Below are positions 42,131 through 47,152 of a DNA stretch of 64,000 nucleotides, piece after piece (within the stretch, counting starts at the first letter, position 1; each line of letters opens with the position of its first letter). A program made the translations under genes and the position numbers. The stretch is from a virus: the IMG/VR virus record IMGVR_UViG_3300027976_003189; one strand, written 5' to 3'. The notes beneath the pieces were generated by a model. It had not been told where the DNA came from and ran no database searches. It saw only the letters and a program-made list of their open reading frames with translations.

Positions 42131-42640
42131 TTATTCCTTTCCTTCAAAATAGCAATTAAAATCTCCATTTAAGATTTTAGTTATGATTTCATAAACAGAT
42201 CCACTTCCGCCGTTTGCATCAGATATATAATTACTTAGTTCCCTGATTGCAGGTATGGCATCATTTGGACAAGCCGTAAATCTTGCTTTTTTCATGCATT
42301 CAATGTCATTTTCGGCATCTCCGATATAGATTACATCATCCCAAGTAACTTCTTTTTCCGGCATAATTACGTTTTCCATCCATGTAATTTTGTCACTAAC
42401 ACAGCTTTCCACCTTTACCTTGTCATTATCAAGAGATATGACTTTTTTATTAATACATCCATCAAAAGAGGATGTTAATATAATAACATCGAAACCTAAT
42501 GTAGTAGCTTTTTCAATAGCCCAAAAGTCTCTGGTATAGAATCCCTTTGTTACCCTACCATCACTGGAAACATAATACATACCATTAGTTAAAACGCCAT
42601 CTACATCAAGTATAATTAGCTTTTTTGAATTTAGAATCAT
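42131..42640 (-). CDS. KdsC/YrbI-family HAD phosphatase (KDO-8-P / KDN-9-P phosphatase-like)
   Basis: LDVDGVLTNG, ILTS, DK, YIGDAENDI, CPNDA, SDANGGSGSVYE. Confidence 0.9.
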   Translation of the reverse strand: MILNSKKLIILDVDGVLTNGMYYVSSDGRVTKGFYTRDFWAIEKATTLGFDVIILTSSFDGCINKKVISLDNDKVKVESCVSDKITWMENVIMPEKEVTWDDVIYIGDAENDIECMKKARFTACPNDAIPAIRELSNYISDANGGSGSVYEIITKILNGDFNCYFEGKE

Positions 42641-42681
42641 TTGTATCTCCCTTATGATATCGACACTATTGATTCTAAATT

Positions 42682-42945
42682 ATGAAATTTGCACAAGATA
42701 ATGGAGATAACTTGAATACTAGAACAGAAATAATAAAAATTAGCTCATTCAGTACAATAGATGAACAGAATAACCAAGTAATATTAGATGTATTCCAAGA
42801 AATAATATATCTATATTCACAAGATGATTCCGGTATTATCTACGGAGAAAAATTTATAAAAATTCAAGGAACTCAAGAAGATGTTGGTCAATTGGATGAA
42901 AATAAATTTATGACCCACTCAGGCAGGGCATTAAAGAGAATTTGA
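42682..42945 (+). CDS. Hypothetical plus-strand protein starting MKFAQ
   Basis: 87 aa; fills the gap between the phosphatase and neuB genes, convergent with neuB. Confidence 0.5.
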   Translation: MKFAQDNGDNLNTRTEIIKISSFSTIDEQNNQVILDVFQEIIYLYSQDDSGIIYGEKFIKIQGTQEDVGQLDENKFMTHSGRALKRI

Positions 42946-43782
42946 AATTTTAAGCTTTGATCTTTGAGATTCTTCCATATCTGTCATGTCTTTTTCTTTG
43001 AACTTCAAAGCTTTCTCTATAGCCACAATATCCCTACAAAGCCTTCTAAGCCCATCTGGTTCTAAAGATGCCGCATGGTCAGTTCCTTTCATAGTACGGT
43101 CTAGAGAGAAATGACGTTCGATCCAAGATGCCCCAAGAGAATAGGCAATAACATCAGCTGCTATACCGTAATTATGGCCAGAATATCCAACGACTGGAAA
43201 CATCTTCTTTAAGTTCTCTACTTCTCGCAAATAGAGATGGTCAAATGGACATGGATATTCTGTTGTAGTATGATAAATAACAACTCTATCTTTGTAATTC
43301 TCTAAAAATACAAAAAGATTTTCACGTTCTAATTTTGTCATCATTCCAAGAGAAATATGCAGATCACCATCGTAACTCTTAAAAAGCATTGATAATATAT
43401 TAAGACATGTATTGGCAGCAGACGGTATTTTAATAAAGTCAGGATTTAAAGATGCTATCTCGGCAGCAGATGTCATATCCCAAACAGAGCAAGAGTAACC
43501 AATCCCAATGTCGTCAGACACTTTTTTAAGTTCCTTATGCTGGTCTAAAGAAAATTCTAGGTTAACCCTATGCTCTAAATATGTCGATCCAAAAGCATTT
43601 GATTGATTAGGATGAGGCTTGTTGTGCCATTCTTTAGGTACAGATTCTACTGGATTTCTTTTTTGCCATTTTATATAATCTGCACCACATATCTTAGCCA
43701 TCTTAATCATTTCTATGGCTACATCTAATTTTCCGAGATGATTGCAACACCCTTCTGCTACTATTTTACATGATTTTTTCAT
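42931..43782 (-). CDS. neuB: NeuB-family nonulosonate(-9-phosphate) synthase, short form without the AFP/SAF domain
   Basis: IVAEGCCNHLG, GADYIKWQK, FIKIPSA, EYP, GYSGH, IERHFSLDRTMKGTDHAASLEPDG. Confidence 0.93.
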   Translation of the reverse strand: MKKSCKIVAEGCCNHLGKLDVAIEMIKMAKICGADYIKWQKRNPVESVPKEWHNKPHPNQSNAFGSTYLEHRVNLEFSLDQHKELKKVSDDIGIGYSCSVWDMTSAAEIASLNPDFIKIPSAANTCLNILSMLFKSYDGDLHISLGMMTKLERENLFVFLENYKDRVVIYHTTTEYPCPFDHLYLREVENLKKMFPVVGYSGHNYGIAADVIAYSLGASWIERHFSLDRTMKGTDHAASLEPDGLRRLCRDIVAIEKALKFKEKDMTDMEESQRSKLKISNSL

Positions 43783-44927: not shown

Positions 44928-44987
44928 ATATAATAAATTAGCAAAGAATATGTATATATCCTTTAATAAGACTACCCTTTAATAAAG

Positions 44988-45710
44988 CTATATTGGAATA
45001 TTATTTAATGCAGATTTGCAAACTGACTCCATAATAATAAAATCCTCTTCTGTATCAATTTGCATAGACTGATATTGTGTTGTCTCAAACAAATAGGGAT
45101 TATATCCTATTCTACACATTCTATCTAATAAGATATCGGAATTCATCATATATAGACACCCATTGTCATAAAGCAAAAACTCCGAATCAGTAATATCTTG
45201 TCTCATTGGCCTATTTAGTACATCATACATTGGAGAGTACTTGCTATCTTTGCTTTTCCACATAAATGGAGTTGATTTATTTACCGTAAGCAAGCTATCA
45301 TGATTTCCATTAACCATAGATTCTAAACAATTATCTATAAGATGCCTATTTCTAATTGGCGATGTTGGTTGAAGATTGATAATAATATCAGCTGTTAAAT
45401 CTTTTTTTAAAGATGACCACCAATAAGCATGAATAAGAGCAGATTCATTTTTACTAGTAGCTGTAGATAATGCATCTGGCCTATTCAGAATAATTGTTTT
45501 ATCACTCAGTCCATTCCCTCCTTTCACTACTTTTTCTACTTCTTTGCAGTTCGTACTAACTATAACAGAATCTACATATTCACTTAATTGAGCAGCAAGG
45601 ACAGACCAATAAATAAGTGGCATATCGCAAAATCTTCTGTAATTTTTACCAGTTAAAGAAGATCCTGCCCTTGCTGTTATGACTGCAATAATTTTTTTAT
45701 TATTAATCAT
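44988..45710 (-). CDS. neuA: CMP-nonulosonate synthetase (NeuA-like cytidylyltransferase)
   Basis: AVITARAGS..GKN, VIVST, RPDALST, LQPTSPIR, DSLLTV, DNGCLY, QIDTEEDF. Confidence 0.92.
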   Translation of the reverse strand: MINNKKIIAVITARAGSSLTGKNYRRFCDMPLIYWSVLAAQLSEYVDSVIVSTNCKEVEKVVKGGNGLSDKTIILNRPDALSTATSKNESALIHAYWWSSLKKDLTADIIINLQPTSPIRNRHLIDNCLESMVNGNHDSLLTVNKSTPFMWKSKDSKYSPMYDVLNRPMRQDITDSEFLLYDNGCLYMMNSDILLDRMCRIGYNPYLFETTQYQSMQIDTEEDFIIMESVCKSALNNIPI

Positions 45711-46458
45711 TTGTATCTTCGAAATTAAGTAAATTTTCTAATTTTTTCTTTTCAAAACAATCCAGTAACCCATCTGAACAGTCTATTATTTTAACATTCT
45801 GCTTATCACATTGTTTTGCTAATGCTGTCCAGTATTCTATAAAAGACATGCAATGAGAATCAATCCATTTCCCCCTATACATTCCTCGATTTGGAGTTGA
45901 AAACACAGGCTCATGAGTAATCCTATAAGGTTTTTCCTCTCCCTCATACTGCCAATAGTAACGATAAAATTTCCTATCAACTTTATGATAGCAACAATCG
46001 CATCCCACCAATACTATTGGAGAGCAACCCATAATAAATGCAAAATGTACAGCAGTCCCAGCAGCCGTTCTAGCACCTATTATTGGTTCATTTGGATCTT
46101 CAGTCAAAACCAATCCATCTTCATGATATTTCTTCTTAGATGGTTCATACCATGTTTTATGATTGAAAAATATAACCTTATCAGGATTTAAATGAGAAGC
46201 ATGATCTTGCAACTTCCCTTTATATAATAAGGATATAGTATTTAGATTTGGAAGTCTTTTAGTATAGTACGACCAGTTTTTTAGACCTATATCATCTCCT
46301 ATGAAATAATCTGTTTCTATCTTTTGAATAGAAGAATTAACTGATAGTGTTATACCTTGTTTTAATATATTTGTATCTGTAAAATGAAGAGATGGACCAG
46401 CACCAACTATAAACGCAGGCTTACCTTTATGAAGATTCTTTAAATCATTTAATATCAT
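45703..46458 (-). CDS. DUF115/Maf-like protein (candidate nonulosonate transferase)
   Basis: KNLHKGKPAFIVGAGPSL, LSVN, AFIMGCSPIVLVGCD; adjacent to neuA. Confidence 0.75.
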   Translation of the reverse strand: MILNDLKNLHKGKPAFIVGAGPSLHFTDTNILKQGITLSVNSSIQKIETDYFIGDDIGLKNWSYYTKRLPNLNTISLLYKGKLQDHASHLNPDKVIFFNHKTWYEPSKKKYHEDGLVLTEDPNEPIIGARTAAGTAVHFAFIMGCSPIVLVGCDCCYHKVDRKFYRYYWQYEGEEKPYRITHEPVFSTPNRGMYRGKWIDSHCMSFIEYWTALAKQCDKQNVKIIDCSDGLLDCFEKKKLENLLNFEDTND

Positions 46459-47152
46459 TTATGGCATCAGTAAAAGATATCTTATCAAAAACTTCAACCC
46501 TACTTTGAGGATTGCAATTATATATCTTTACCTTTCTTATTTCGGCAAATTCCTTTAACGCAGGATACGCCATATCATTATACTTAAATGCTTCTCTTTG
46601 TTGCTTATGAGGAGCCATCATATAATCTATTCTTCTTGGCTGTTTCTCTTTTGGCCAGAATTGCCAGAAATGACTCTTTTCACCTATCATGTATTGATCT
46701 ACACCCAGAAGGTATATACGCTTGCATCCCATTTGTACACAGAGGTCTATGCCGCTTGGTACGCTAGAGCAGTAAGATAAGCCGGTATCATCTGTATTGA
46801 TAACTCCTTCGCTTGTGGGACGTATATGAAATGTGTAAAATTCTGGAATTTCTTGGAAATGAGGTTTCCAACTATCTCTTACAATTTTATTACATGATGA
46901 TTTTTTTAACGCAGTCCACCAATCCCATCTTCTGCAAAGCGCATCGTTTGATATCCAATATCTTTTTTCTGGTGATCCATCTAACCAGGGCATCATAATA
47001 AAACTAGAATTAACGGATACAATTATATGATTATGTATATGCTCTAAAAGAGGGCTATTATAGACTTCAAGCAAGCTAGTTCCTGCTCCTATAACAAAAG
47101 CAGTCTCATTTTTATGCTTACCTATAAAATCAGTGTACGATTTCATTACCAA
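46445..47152 (-). CDS. DUF115/Maf-like protein (candidate nonulosonate transferase)
   Basis: GKHKNETAFVIGAGTSL, VSVN, VQMGCKRIYLLGVD, IYNCNP. Confidence 0.75.
   Translation of the reverse strand: MVMKSYTDFIGKHKNETAFVIGAGTSLLEVYNSPLLEHIHNHIIVSVNSSFIMMPWLDGSPEKRYWISNDALCRRWDWWTALKKSSCNKIVRDSWKPHFQEIPEFYTFHIRPTSEGVINTDDTGLSYCSSVPSGIDLCVQMGCKRIYLLGVDQYMIGEKSHFWQFWPKEKQPRRIDYMMAPHKQQREAFKYNDMAYPALKEFAEIRKVKIYNCNPQSRVEVFDKISFTDAINDIK

What the first reader, a model, noticed from the sequence alone, without database searches (positions are those of the whole stretch)
42131..47152. Complete phage-encoded nonulosonic acid (KDN/sialic-acid-like) pathway via the 9-phosphate route
Seen: NeuB-type synthase, KdsC-type HAD phosphatase, NeuA-type CMP-synthetase and two adjacent DUF115/Maf-like genes; no NeuC epimerase and no Pse/Leg dehydratase or aminotransferase in the window. 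The synthase has GYSGH and ERHFSLDRTMKGTDHAASLEP, which from memory fits the phosphate-synthase clade (animal NANS, Bacteroides KDN-9-P synthase). Established: Bacteroides thetaiotaomicron makes CMP-KDN from mannose-6-P and PEP using synthase, HAD phosphatase and CMP-transferase. Inference: this phage makes and transfers its own KDN-like sugar using only central metabolites, potentially coating the virion with a negatively charged sialic-acid mimic, or masking receptors. This is my best candidate for an undescribed system.
Basis: partly seen in the sequence, partly recalled or inferred. Interest (0 to 1): 0.87.

Follow-up and report, generated by a model that had tools for sequence, protein, structure and literature searches.

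The report
Sialic-acid-like sugar module in huge phage
An uncultured large phage carries a compact gene set, shared by a whole group of huge phages, that should make an activated sialic-acid-type sugar (most likely Kdn) from ordinary metabolites and attach it to an unknown target inside the infected cell; no published phage is known to do this.

Summary
On the minus strand at 42131-47152 lie a KdsC-family HAD phosphatase, a NeuB-type synthase without the SAF domain, a CMP-nonulosonate synthetase and two stand-alone Maf/DUF115 domains. A 382-aa HTH gene, found only in this phage, interrupts them.

The reading is largely supported. The synthase sits in a clade that is sister to Bacteroides-type Kdn-9-P synthase orthologues and excludes NeuB/NnaB and PseI equivalogs (support 100/98). 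In 64 of 80 cellular loci its relatives sit beside a KdsC-type phosphatase, usually fused to NeuA. The phage phosphatases group with these and away from true KdsC. The 251-aa DUF115 protein matches the catalytic domain of Maf (Z 17.4).

Three corrections:
- The synthase is not a BT1714 orthologue (31% identity, no SAF domain).
- Two SDR sugar enzymes do lie in the window.
- The phosphatase fails the Kdn-9-P phosphatase equivalog cut-off.

The sugar (Kdn or Neu5Ac) and the acceptor remain inferred. The same module (UvrD, Maf-like, NeuA, NeuB, HAD) recurs in about 20 IMG/VR contigs of up to 548 kb. It is absent from GenBank phages and from the papers searched. This scan had already noted a like operon in another huge phage (e1-3475809).

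The parts
42131..42640 (-). Stand-alone KdsC-family (HAD-IIIA) sugar-acid phosphate phosphatase, 169 aa. Predicted nonulosonate-9-phosphate phosphatase.
   Evidence: NCBIfam NF058599 86.8 bits and KdsC NF007019 85.8 bits, both below their cut-offs. DxDxT and GDxxxD motifs are present. PDB hits are the mouse CMAS C-terminal domain, KdsC and BT1713. In the tree it groups with phage and NeuA-fused HADs, apart from 4 KdsC.
42641..42930 (.). 290-bp spacer between the synthase and the phosphatase. It holds an 87-aa ORF on the opposite strand (42682-42945). Function unknown; it is not a SAF-domain remnant.
   Evidence: Gene callers list the 87-aa ORF in every copy of this phage. In relative L001 the synthase and phosphatase genes lie 9 bp apart.
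42931..43782 (-). NeuB-family synthase without a SAF domain, 283 aa. Predicted PEP + hexose-6-phosphate to nonulosonate-9-phosphate synthase.
   Evidence: PF03102 207.9 bits. AF2 model pLDDT 94.9. Swiss-Prot fold search puts NANS first at 35% identity. Tree and motifs.
43779..44927 (-). 382-aa protein with three helix-turn-helix motifs, inserted between NeuA and NeuB. Not part of the conserved module.
   Evidence: Weak HTH_23, HTH_SB, HTH_38 and IS1-like hits. No homologue in any of 33 related viral loci or 80 cellular loci.
44988..45710 (-). CMP-nonulosonate synthetase (NeuA type), 240 aa.
   Evidence: PF02348 47.2 bits. PDB hits: V. cholerae CMP-Neu5Ac synthetase 73.9 bits, P. parvum PpNeuA 64.5, mouse CMAS 45.8. 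The ARxGS...GKN and QPTSP(I)R motifs are in the translation.
45703..46458 (-). Stand-alone Maf_flag10/DUF115 domain, 251 aa. Predicted CMP-nonulosonate-dependent transferase.
   Evidence: PF01973 50.3 bits. AF2 pLDDT 94.1. Maf 5MU5 is the top hit by Foldseek (E 9e-8) and by VIA (Z 17.4 over residues 262-516). Cst-I/II score Z 10-10.7.
46445..47152 (-). Second DUF115-like paralogue, 235 aa (233 aa from the first ATG).
   Evidence: PF01973 25.5 bits, below the cut-off. PHROG 4603 'alpha-2,3-sialyltransferase' E 6e-11. 23% identical to the first paralogue, with the same invariant G, S, N and D columns.
30954..31694 (-). Possible third, very divergent DUF115-like protein, 246 aa.
   Evidence: No Pfam or NCBIfam hit. 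hhalign against the DUF115 alignment gives E 0.0016 and probability 16%, with the GxGxS and GxD...RYFW motifs aligned.
41104..42168 (-). Two unknown genes (196 aa and 154 aa) directly after the phosphatase. The first overlaps it by 38 bp.
   Evidence: Homologues follow the phosphatase in several viral loci: L105, L106, L130 for the 196-aa protein, and L106, L119, L123, L124 for the 154-aa protein. No informative family hit.
31682..41097 (-). Adjoining soluble glycan genes: GT4+GT2 fusion, GT4, GT2, a truncated nucleotide-sugar dehydrogenase, three methyltransferases and unknowns.
   Evidence: None of the 21 island ORFs checked has a real membrane segment.
47459..49516 (-). UvrD/PcrA-type helicase. 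It is the conserved upstream neighbour of the module in related phages.
   Evidence: A UvrD homologue lies within 10 kb of NeuB in most related viral loci.

Best explanation
This is a phage-encoded, phosphate-route pathway for a CMP-activated nonulosonic acid, joined to its own transferases. It is inherited as a module in a lineage of uncultured large and huge phages.

Proposed steps:
1. The SAF-less NeuB-type synthase condenses PEP with a hexose-6-phosphate to give a nonulosonate-9-phosphate. The substrate is most likely mannose-6-phosphate, giving Kdn-9-P.
2. The KdsC-family HAD phosphatase removes the 9-phosphate.
3. The NeuA-type enzyme makes the CMP-sugar.
4. The two small Maf-type (DUF115, GT42-like) enzymes, perhaps three, transfer it to an acceptor.

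Every glycan gene in the 17-kb island is soluble, and the window holds no flippase, polymerase or lipid-carrier transferase. The acceptor is therefore most likely cytoplasmic: a phage protein, such as a virion component, or a glycan that the neighbouring soluble glycosyltransferases build on one.

Shown here: gene identities, intact catalytic motifs, clade membership, genomic linkage, the fold of the transferase, and conservation across phages.

Inferred: the substrate and product, the activity of each enzyme, and the acceptor.
For: - Families and motifs.
- Synthase clade: the phage and SAF-less enzymes plus the BT1714-like enzymes split from NeuB/NnaB and PseI equivalogs with support 100/98. 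Both groups share KR after the KxQ motif, G-x-TY-x-x-HR-x-x-LE, and KGTD, which the other two groups lack.
- Swiss-Prot fold search: animal Neu5Ac-9-P synthases are first at 35% identity and TM 0.90. C. jejuni NeuB and PseI score 23-25%.
- Linkage: 64 of 80 cellular loci with a SAF-less NeuB have a KdsC-type HAD within 8 kb. In 60 it is fused to NeuA and lies next to NeuB.
- The fused HAD domain passes the Kdn-9-P phosphatase equivalog cut-off in 3 of 4 Bacteroidales genomes, at 183-187 bits against 180.
- No third gene is conserved in the cellular loci; none exceeds 14 of 80 and none is an epimerase or kinase. The substrate should therefore be a common metabolite.
- Twenty of 22 phage HADs form one clade that nests with NeuA-fused and BT1713-like HADs, apart from E. 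coli and Bacteroidales KdsC.
- NeuA hits CMP-Neu5Ac and CMP-Kdn synthetases, not KdsB.
- The DUF115 protein matches Maf at Z 17.4, Cst-I/II at about 10.5 and animal sialyltransferases at 9-10. Its profile hits a P. multocida alpha-2,3-sialyltransferase at E 3e-4.
- Twenty of 33 related viral loci carry NeuB, NeuA, DUF115 and HAD together, mostly beside UvrD.
- Five related phage genomes of 350-548 kb have no DegT aminotransferase. Three complete ones have no Epimerase_2.
- No real membrane segment occurs in the island.
Against: - No enzyme of the SAF-less subfamily that I could find has been assayed, so the substrate rests on linkage and clade.
- The phage phosphatase scores far below the Kdn-9-P phosphatase cut-off (86.8 against 180) and equally on KdsC.
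- The synthase is only 31% identical to the BT1714-like enzyme and 34% to LegI.
- The closest relative's loci (L008-L010) and three others (L107, L120, L121) show no phosphatase within 10 kb.
- Two of five related genomes have an Epimerase_2 gene 18-40 kb away, so a ManNAc-type substrate is possible in some.
- The HAD tree is a quick tree with only four KdsC.
- No RNA data exist and no acceptor was identified. No Ser/Thr-rich protein occurs in the window.
Confidence: 0.65

Rival explanations
1. The same enzymes make CMP-Neu5Ac rather than CMP-Kdn. The synthase would use ManNAc-6-phosphate supplied by the host (NanE or NanK) or by a phage epimerase, as animal NANS does.
For: The best Swiss-Prot structural matches are animal Neu5Ac-9-P synthases. 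Two of five related huge-phage genomes carry a UDP-GlcNAc 2-epimerase-family gene. The top PDB hit of NeuA is a CMP-Neu5Ac synthetase.
Against: The window has no epimerase or kinase, and neither do three complete related genomes. No such gene is conserved beside the cassette in 80 cellular loci. The fused phosphatase domain of cellular relatives passes the Kdn-9-P phosphatase equivalog cut-off. The sister clade is the Kdn-9-P synthase type.
Confidence: 0.2
2. The pathway is as proposed, but the sugar goes onto a host cell-envelope glycan. That would mask receptors or block superinfection; the virion would not be the target.
For: In cellular genomes the same cassette lies in surface-polysaccharide loci with flippases, GT52/polysialyltransferase-like genes and MBOAT. 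Phage alteration of host nonulosonate-bearing capsules is documented (PMC12053666 and PMC6586298, listed). The module sits among replication genes, not structural genes.
Against: The 17-kb island has no real membrane segment and the window has no flippase, polymerase or lipid-carrier transferase. The transferase type (Maf) is known for cytoplasmic protein O-glycosylation (5MU5 match; bioRxiv 10.1101/2020.06.03.131540). A GT4 gene lies inside the neck-tail block at 8442-9650.
Confidence: 0.3
3. The DUF115 genes are MptE-type 6-hydroxymethyl-dihydropterin pyrophosphokinases, or another nucleotide-binding enzyme, and not glycosyltransferases. The phage would then make a free CMP-sugar for host enzymes.
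For: The Pfam family is named MptE-like. M. jannaschii HPPK is the second structural match, at Z 12.4.
Against: Maf scores clearly higher (Z 17.4, 198 residues) and sialyltransferases of GT42 and GT29 fill the list. The genes sit beside NeuA and NeuB in more than 20 phage loci. None of the window ORFs scanned with Pfam is a folate or pterin gene.
Confidence: 0.04
4. The module makes Kdo, a legionaminic acid or a pseudaminic acid.
For: LegI is nearly as similar as NANS (34% against 35%). The phosphatase scores the same on KdsC as on the Kdn-9-P phosphatase model. PseF is the best NCBIfam hit of NeuA, at 67 bits.
Against: The synthase is NeuB-family, and KdsA matches reach only TM about 0.6 and 14% identity. 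It separates from PseI and NeuB/NnaB equivalogs at 100/98. No DegT aminotransferase occurs in the window or in five related genomes. A phosphatase has no role in the Leg or Pse routes. The phage HADs lie apart from KdsC.
Confidence: 0.04

Closest known systems
CMP-Kdn pathway of Bacteroides thetaiotaomicron (BT1714 Kdn-9-P synthase, BT1713 Kdn-9-P phosphatase, BT1715 CMP-Kdn synthetase; Wang et al. 2008, as cited in PMC6200933) and of Prymnesium parvum (PMC6200933)
   Same: The same three enzyme families in one cluster. The synthase clade is sister to BT1714-type orthologues. The phosphatase is of the KdsC family on the BT1713 side of the tree. NeuA hits PpNeuA. No NeuC is needed.
   Different: The synthase is 31% identical and lacks the SAF domain that the BT1714-like enzyme has. 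The phosphatase is below the equivalog cut-off. The genes are encoded by a phage. The pathway is coupled to Maf-type transferases, which none of the 80 cellular loci has.
Animal N-acetylneuraminate-9-phosphate synthase (NANS) route
   Same: It is the best structural and sequence match in Swiss-Prot (35%, TM 0.90) and it works through a 9-phosphate intermediate. Mouse CMAS carries a KdsC-like C-terminal domain, which is the top PDB hit of the phage phosphatase.
   Different: NANS has a C-terminal antifreeze-like SAF domain (359 aa against 283). The animal substrate is ManNAc-6-P made by GNE, which is absent here.
Two-gene cassette of SAF-less NeuB plus NeuA-KdsC fusion in Bacteroidota, Nitrosomonadaceae and others (uncharacterised as far as I could find)
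   Same: 48-55% identity to the phage synthase. The three activities are the same. The fused HAD reaches the Kdn-9-P phosphatase equivalog score.
   Different: In cells the phosphatase is fused to NeuA in 60 of 80 loci and sits in membrane-linked polysaccharide loci. In phages it is a separate gene, and DUF115 transferases are added.
Maf (motility-associated factor) flagellin nonulosonate O-glycosyltransferases, for example M. magneticum Maf (PDB 5MU5)
   Same: The central Maf_flag10/DUF115 catalytic domain has the same fold (Z 17.4). It is encoded next to nonulosonate synthesis genes. It is soluble.
   Different: The phage proteins are about 250 aa and consist of the catalytic domain alone. 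They lack the N- and C-terminal domains of the 632-residue Maf chain. The window has no flagellin gene.
GT42 sialyltransferases Cst-I and Cst-II of C. jejuni and the P. multocida alpha-2,3-sialyltransferase
   Same: Similar size, the N-terminal GxGxS nucleotide loop and the GxD motif. Fold match at Z 10-10.7.
   Different: Sequence similarity is marginal (E 3e-4 by profile), and their acceptors are lipooligosaccharide glycans.

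Membership tests
NeuB family (PF03102) PEP-condensing nonulosonate synthases | Full-length match to the NeuB TIM-barrel domain above the curated cut-off | tested here: met
   207.9 bits against 22.1, covering positions 1-240 of 241. 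AF2 model pLDDT 94.9.
NeuB family (PF03102) PEP-condensing nonulosonate synthases | The two metal-binding histidines (GxSxH and ExH motifs) | tested here: met
   GYSGH and IERH align with GLSDH and IEKH of PseI, NeuB and SpsE.
Phosphate-route (nonulosonate-9-P) synthases: BT1714 / NANS type | Groups with characterised-type phosphate-route enzymes and not with NeuB/LegI-type or PseI | tested here: met
   The split of SAF-less plus BT1714-like against NeuB_NnaB plus PseI has support 100/98. NANS is the top Swiss-Prot match. The BT1714-like label rests on a neighbouring phosphatase at 235-248 bits on NF058599 and 219 bits to PDB 3E81.
Phosphate-route (nonulosonate-9-P) synthases: BT1714 / NANS type | Dedicated sugar-acid phosphate phosphatase encoded with the synthase | tested here: met
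   The HAD gene lies 290 bp downstream. 64 of 80 cellular and 21 of 33 viral relatives have one.
Phosphate-route (nonulosonate-9-P) synthases: BT1714 / NANS type | C-terminal SAF / antifreeze-like domain, as in BT1714-like and NANS | tested here: not met
   The protein has 283 aa, with no SAF hit and no SAF remnant in the spacer. The BT1714-like enzyme has SAF.
Phosphate-route (nonulosonate-9-P) synthases: BT1714 / NANS type | Uses Man-6-P or ManNAc-6-P, not the free sugar | not testable with these tools
   This needs an enzyme assay.
Kdn-9-P phosphatase (NCBIfam NF058599, BT1713 equivalog) | Score at or above the equivalog cut-off of 180 bits | tested here: not met
   86.8 bits; KdsC NF007019 gives 85.8 bits.
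KdsC/YrbI family HAD-IIIA (C0) phosphatases | HAD catalytic motifs and a family-level match | tested here: met
   TIGR01670 80.8 bits, below the subfamily cut-off of 106.95 but full length. DVDGVLT and GDAEND are present. 17 KdsC-family structures are hit.
KdsC proper (Kdo-8-P phosphatase) | Groups with bona fide KdsC | tested here: not met
   E. coli kdsC and three Bacteroidales KdsC separate (SH-aLRT 94) from a group holding all phage, NeuA-fused and BT1713-like HADs. This is a quick tree with few KdsC.
CMP-sialic acid / CMP-Kdn synthetases (PF02348, NeuA type) | Family match and conserved CTP and sugar-binding motifs | tested here: met
   47.2 bits against 22.6. PDB hits 6IFD, 9T4Z, 1QWJ and 1EYR. 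The motifs are seen.
Maf flagellin nonulosonate glycosyltransferases | Central Maf_flag10 (PF01973) catalytic domain | tested here: met
   50.3 bits against 34.6. Z 17.4 to residues 262-516 of 5MU5.
Maf flagellin nonulosonate glycosyltransferases | Flanking N- and C-terminal domains and a flagellin substrate | tested here: not met
   The protein has 251 aa and consists of the domain alone. None of the window ORFs scanned with Pfam is a flagellin.
MptE-type HPPK | Best structural match and a pterin or folate gene context | tested here: not met
   HPPK scores Z 12.4, below Maf at 17.4. The context is NeuA and NeuB in more than 20 loci.

The most novel reading that the evidence does not exclude
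A lineage of huge phages makes its own sialic-acid-family sugar (Kdn) in the host cytoplasm. It uses minimal, domain-only Maf enzymes to O-glycosylate phage proteins, most plausibly virion surface proteins, which would give the particle an acidic sialic-acid-like coat. That would be the first virus-encoded nonulosonate protein glycosylation system, and it would define the smallest working Maf-type transferase.
Probability: 0.3. Interest if true: 0.8.

Novelty: new variant of a known kind. Interest (0 to 1): 0.62.

Why it matters
Sialic-acid-family sugars are known as products of animals, some bacteria, archaea and algae. Phages are known to bind, cleave or modify them, but in the papers I could search no phage makes one.

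A self-contained pathway that needs only PEP, a hexose phosphate and CTP, kept across a clade of phages of up to about 550 kb, implies a strong selective use. Candidates are charge or shielding of the particle, protection from host or grazer recognition, and re-decoration of the infected cell.

The 250-aa DUF115 proteins would be the smallest Maf-type nonulosonate transferases. That makes them convenient for working out how this poorly understood enzyme class picks donors and acceptors, and possibly useful as glyco-engineering tools.

The work also points to a large, unassayed SAF-less synthase subfamily in Bacteroidota and nitrifiers that probably makes Kdn.

Tried and rejected
- **DNA search.** A search of the 5-kb stretch against GenBank phages found nothing.
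- **Protein searches in GenBank phages.** NeuB gave only three hits at 33% identity or less. NeuA gave one Moritella contig. The DUF115 protein gave none.
- **Whole genome.** None is held for the window, so genes outside the 64 kb could not be checked. Five related phage genomes were used instead.
- **Papers not held.** Wang 2008 and Lu 2009, on BT1713 specificity residues, could not be read. I could not compare the specificity residues of the phosphatase.
- **B. thetaiotaomicron genes.** I could not fetch them by name. Orthologues were identified indirectly, through the NF058599 equivalog score and PDB 3E81.
- **BT1714 orthology.** I first assumed the SAF-less cellular enzymes were BT1714 orthologues. 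I rejected this.
- **Promoter and terminator scan.** Promoter-like sites are at chance level (87 against 84 expected). A hairpin at the HTH/NeuB junction remains uninterpreted.
- **The two unknown genes after the phosphatase.** Atlas searches were uninformative.
- **Acceptor search.** No Ser/Thr-rich acceptor candidate occurs in the window.
- **Expression.** No RNA run holds the stretch.
- **Host.** It was not determined. The phage NeuBs do not nest inside any cellular group, and the nearest isolated-phage polymerase is 34% identical or less.

Full report
**1. What is there**

All genes in the region run on the minus strand. In the order of transcription they are:
- a UvrD/PcrA helicase (47459-49516)
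- a 114-aa zinc-ribbon protein (47146-47490)
- two DUF115/MptE-like genes (46445-47152 and 45703-46458)
- a NeuA-type cytidylyltransferase (44988-45710)
- a 382-aa protein with three HTH motifs (43779-44927)
- a NeuB-family synthase of 283 aa without a SAF domain (42931-43782)
- a 290-bp spacer
- a KdsC-family HAD phosphatase (42131-42640)
- two unknown genes

Neighbouring genes overlap by 4 to 38 bp. The exceptions are a 60-bp gap after NeuA and the spacer. The catalytic motifs of the phosphatase and of NeuA are intact.

The window is clearly phage. It holds a tail tube gene, a UvsX-like recombinase, a split DnaE polymerase, a primase, a topoisomerase and DNA methylases.

The same phage, with the same gene order, was assembled in JGI, ENA and Logan data. 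Its DNA occurs in freshwater, microbial-mat, sediment, aquatic and estuary metagenomes from about ten studies.

**2. The synthase**

It belongs to a very large subfamily of 280-290-aa NeuB proteins without a SAF domain. Automatic cluster labels give these as partly viral (Uroviricota) and partly Bacteroidota.

Against Swiss-Prot models the identities are as follows:

| Swiss-Prot entry | Identity |
|---|---|
| Animal Neu5Ac-9-P synthases | 35%, TM 0.90 |
| LegI (C. jejuni, L. pneumophila) | 34% and 32% |
| Drosophila NANS | 31% |
| C. jejuni NeuB | 23% |
| PseI | 23-25% |

To get a real tree I needed references. I took them from three sources:
- Bacteroidales genomes hold a stand-alone phosphatase that scores 235-248 bits on the Kdn-9-P phosphatase equivalog model and 219 bits against PDB 3E81 (BT1713). 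It sits in a CTP_transf_3, NeuB+SAF, HAD cluster that mirrors BT1715-BT1714-BT1713.

In a careful IQ-TREE run, the SAF-less clade (phage and cellular) and the BT1714-like enzymes fall on one side of a branch with 100/98 support. NeuB_NnaB and PseI fall on the other side.

The alignment shows residues shared only by the first side:
- K-R after the KxQ motif, where the others have T-F or T-Y
- a G-x-T-Y-x-x-H-R-x-x-L-E loop
- K-G-T-D, where the others have G-P-D

These extra basic residues are candidates for binding the 6-phosphate. That is my inference.

The phage enzyme is only 31% identical to the BT1714-like enzyme. It is therefore a member of the phosphate-route clade but not of the characterised orthogroup.

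**3. Linkage**

I fetched 80 cellular loci with a SAF-less NeuB at 48-55% identity. They come mostly from Bacteroidota, and also from Nitrosomonadaceae, Alphaproteobacteria, Planctomycetota, Bacillota and others.
- 64 of the 80 have a KdsC-type HAD within 8 kb.
- In 60 it is the C-terminal domain of a 382-439-aa NeuA-HAD fusion lying directly beside NeuB.
- In 3 of 4 Bacteroidales genomes that domain reaches the Kdn-9-P phosphatase equivalog cut-off.
- No other gene family occurs in more than 14 of the 80 loci. Those that recur are GT2, GT4, a pyruvyl transferase, a flippase, a GT52/polysialyltransferase-like gene, Gmd and MBOAT. These are surface-polysaccharide genes, not enzymes that would make ManNAc-6-P.

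A synthase that always travels with a phosphatase and an activating enzyme, and with nothing that prepares a special substrate, fits Man-6-P to Kdn-9-P to Kdn to CMP-Kdn. It does not prove it.

**4. The phosphatase**

HMM scores cannot decide between Kdn-9-P phosphatase (86.8 bits) and KdsC (85.8 bits).

In a quick tree of 92 domains, E. coli K-12 KdsC and three Bacteroidales KdsC separate (SH-aLRT 94) from everything else. Twenty of 22 phage HADs form one clade (100) that joins 12 NeuA-fused HADs (100) inside the group that also holds the BT1713-like proteins. This argues against a Kdo-8-P phosphatase. The outgroup sample is small.

**5. The transferases**

An AF2 model of the 251-aa DUF115 protein has pLDDT 94.1.

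| PDB match | VIA-align Z |
|---|---|
| Maf of M. magneticum (5MU5), residues 262-516, 198 aligned, rmsd 3.4 | 17.4 |
| Archaeal MptE HPPK | 12.4 |
| Cst-I / Cst-II | 10-10.7 |
| Animal GT29 sialyltransferases | 9-10 |

Maf is also the top Foldseek hit, at E 9e-8. A profile of 33 phage homologues hits a P. multocida alpha-2,3-sialyltransferase at E 3e-4 through the GxGxS and GxD motifs.

The proteins are the catalytic domain alone, without the flanking domains of Maf. A third candidate at 30954-31694 is very weak.

None of the 80 cellular loci has a DUF115 gene near the cassette, so the pairing is peculiar to phages in this sample.

**6. Conservation in phages**

- Twenty of the 33 viral loci studied carry NeuB, NeuA, at least one DUF115 gene and a stand-alone HAD.
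- Most are in the order UvrD, DUF115 (one or two copies), NeuA, NeuB, HAD.
- Four more lack only the HAD within 10 kb, counting one of the closest relative's near-identical loci (P0007, 67% identity).
- The HTH gene occurs only in this phage, so it is an insertion.

Phage NeuBs form three phage-only groups outside the clade that holds all 80 cellular sequences. That points to long residence in phages and against recent capture.

One viral locus (L129) carries a BT1714-type synthase instead. Phages have therefore taken up phosphate-route synthases more than once.

Five related genomes of 350-548 kb, four of them at least 98% complete, have no DegT aminotransferase. This excludes the Leg and Pse routes. 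Two have an Epimerase_2 gene 18-40 kb away, and three complete ones have none.

**7. Where the sugar goes**

This is not shown. None of the 21 ORFs of the island, nor the GT4 gene in the neck-tail block, has a real hydrophobic segment. The one flagged stretch, in the 251-aa DUF115 protein, overlaps the conserved core motif seen and is not a membrane helix. The window has no flippase, polymerase or lipid-carrier transferase.

Maf enzymes glycosylate flagellin in the cytoplasm. I therefore favour a cytoplasmic acceptor, most plausibly phage structural proteins. The rival is modification of a host envelope glycan using host export machinery. No Ser/Thr-rich candidate occurs in the window.

**8. 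Novelty**

Searches of the open-access library for phage together with NeuB, nonulosonic acid, sialic acid synthase, cytidylyltransferase, and jumbo or huge phage gave no paper describing such a module. GenBank phage records lack it.

The enzymes are all of known kinds. What is new is the combination, the phage setting, the SAF-less synthase subfamily and the domain-only Maf.

This scan had already reported a like operon in a roughly 400-kb phage (e1-3475809) and Maf-like genes in capsid modules of other phages (e1-3295732, e1-3277304). Those are unverified AI notes. My evidence here is independent of them.

**9. Verdict**

I class it as a new variant of a known kind, with interest 0.62.

Noticed in passing
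window 43779-44927 (-): A 382-aa protein with three HTH motifs (HTH_23, Sleeping-Beauty-type and IS1-like hits) is wedged between NeuA and NeuB, and its stop overlaps the NeuB start. It has no homologue in 33 related viral loci, so it looks like a recent insertion, perhaps a mobile or regulatory gene. A GC-rich hairpin lies at 43806-43789, at the junction.
   Followed up: partly
window 42682-42945 (+): This is the only plus-strand gene call in the area. It is an 87-aa ORF inside the 290-bp spacer between NeuB and the phosphatase, it overlaps the NeuB stop by 15 bp, and it is present in all copies of this phage.
   Followed up: no
window 19658-20608 and 22283-23248 (-): There are two SDR sugar-nucleotide enzymes. 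One is GDP-L-fucose-synthase-like (376 bits on NF047922, below the cut-off). The other is a generic GalE/RmlB/TviC-like enzyme. The phage probably also makes a 6-deoxyhexose or an epimerised sugar.
   Followed up: partly
window 36554-37429 (-): A nucleotide-sugar dehydrogenase of only 291 aa matches positions 68-295 of the 413-position model. It lacks the C-terminal domain and part of the N-terminal domain, so it is either truncated or an unusual short form.
   Followed up: no
window 11596-12669 (-): An actin-fold protein matches the Pfam family Volactin (PF25216, 201 bits). It lies among the structural and neck genes.
   Followed up: no
window 8442-9650 (-): A GT4-type glycosyltransferase (PF00534, 30 bits) lies inside the neck-tail gene block, next to the tail tube gene. 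It hints that virion proteins are glycosylated.
   Followed up: no
L129 (IMG/VR 3300024432_001677) 9959-11562: This viral locus has a NeuB that groups with the SAF-bearing BT1714-type Kdn-9-P synthases (100/99) and not with the SAF-less phage clade. A DUF115 gene and a HAD gene lie nearby. It is a second, independent uptake of a phosphate-route synthase by a phage.
   Followed up: partly
L008 10842-11936 (-): In the closest relative (67% NeuB identity) the gene between NeuB and NeuA encodes 364 aa with a weak BNR_2 (sialidase-type propeller) hit at E 1.7e-4, below the cut-off. That phage shows no HAD phosphatase within 10 kb.
   Followed up: no
L014-L093 (cellular loci): A two-gene cassette of SAF-less NeuB plus a NeuA-KdsC-phosphatase fusion is widespread in Bacteroidota, Nitrosomonas/Nitrosospira and other phyla. 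It sits in polysaccharide loci, eight of which hold GT52/polysialyltransferase-like genes. It appears to be unassayed.
   Followed up: partly
window 59064-59735 (-): A dCMP-deaminase-family protein matches the 102-position Pfam domain across 184 residues, so it carries a large insertion. It lies between the two halves of the split DnaE polymerase (57128-59092 and 60216-62834).
   Followed up: no
window 27700-28584, 29359-29796, 51544-51879 (-): Three further genes: an RlaP-type nucleotidyltransferase, a 2H-SAK phosphoesterase and a SpoVS-like protein.
   Followed up: no
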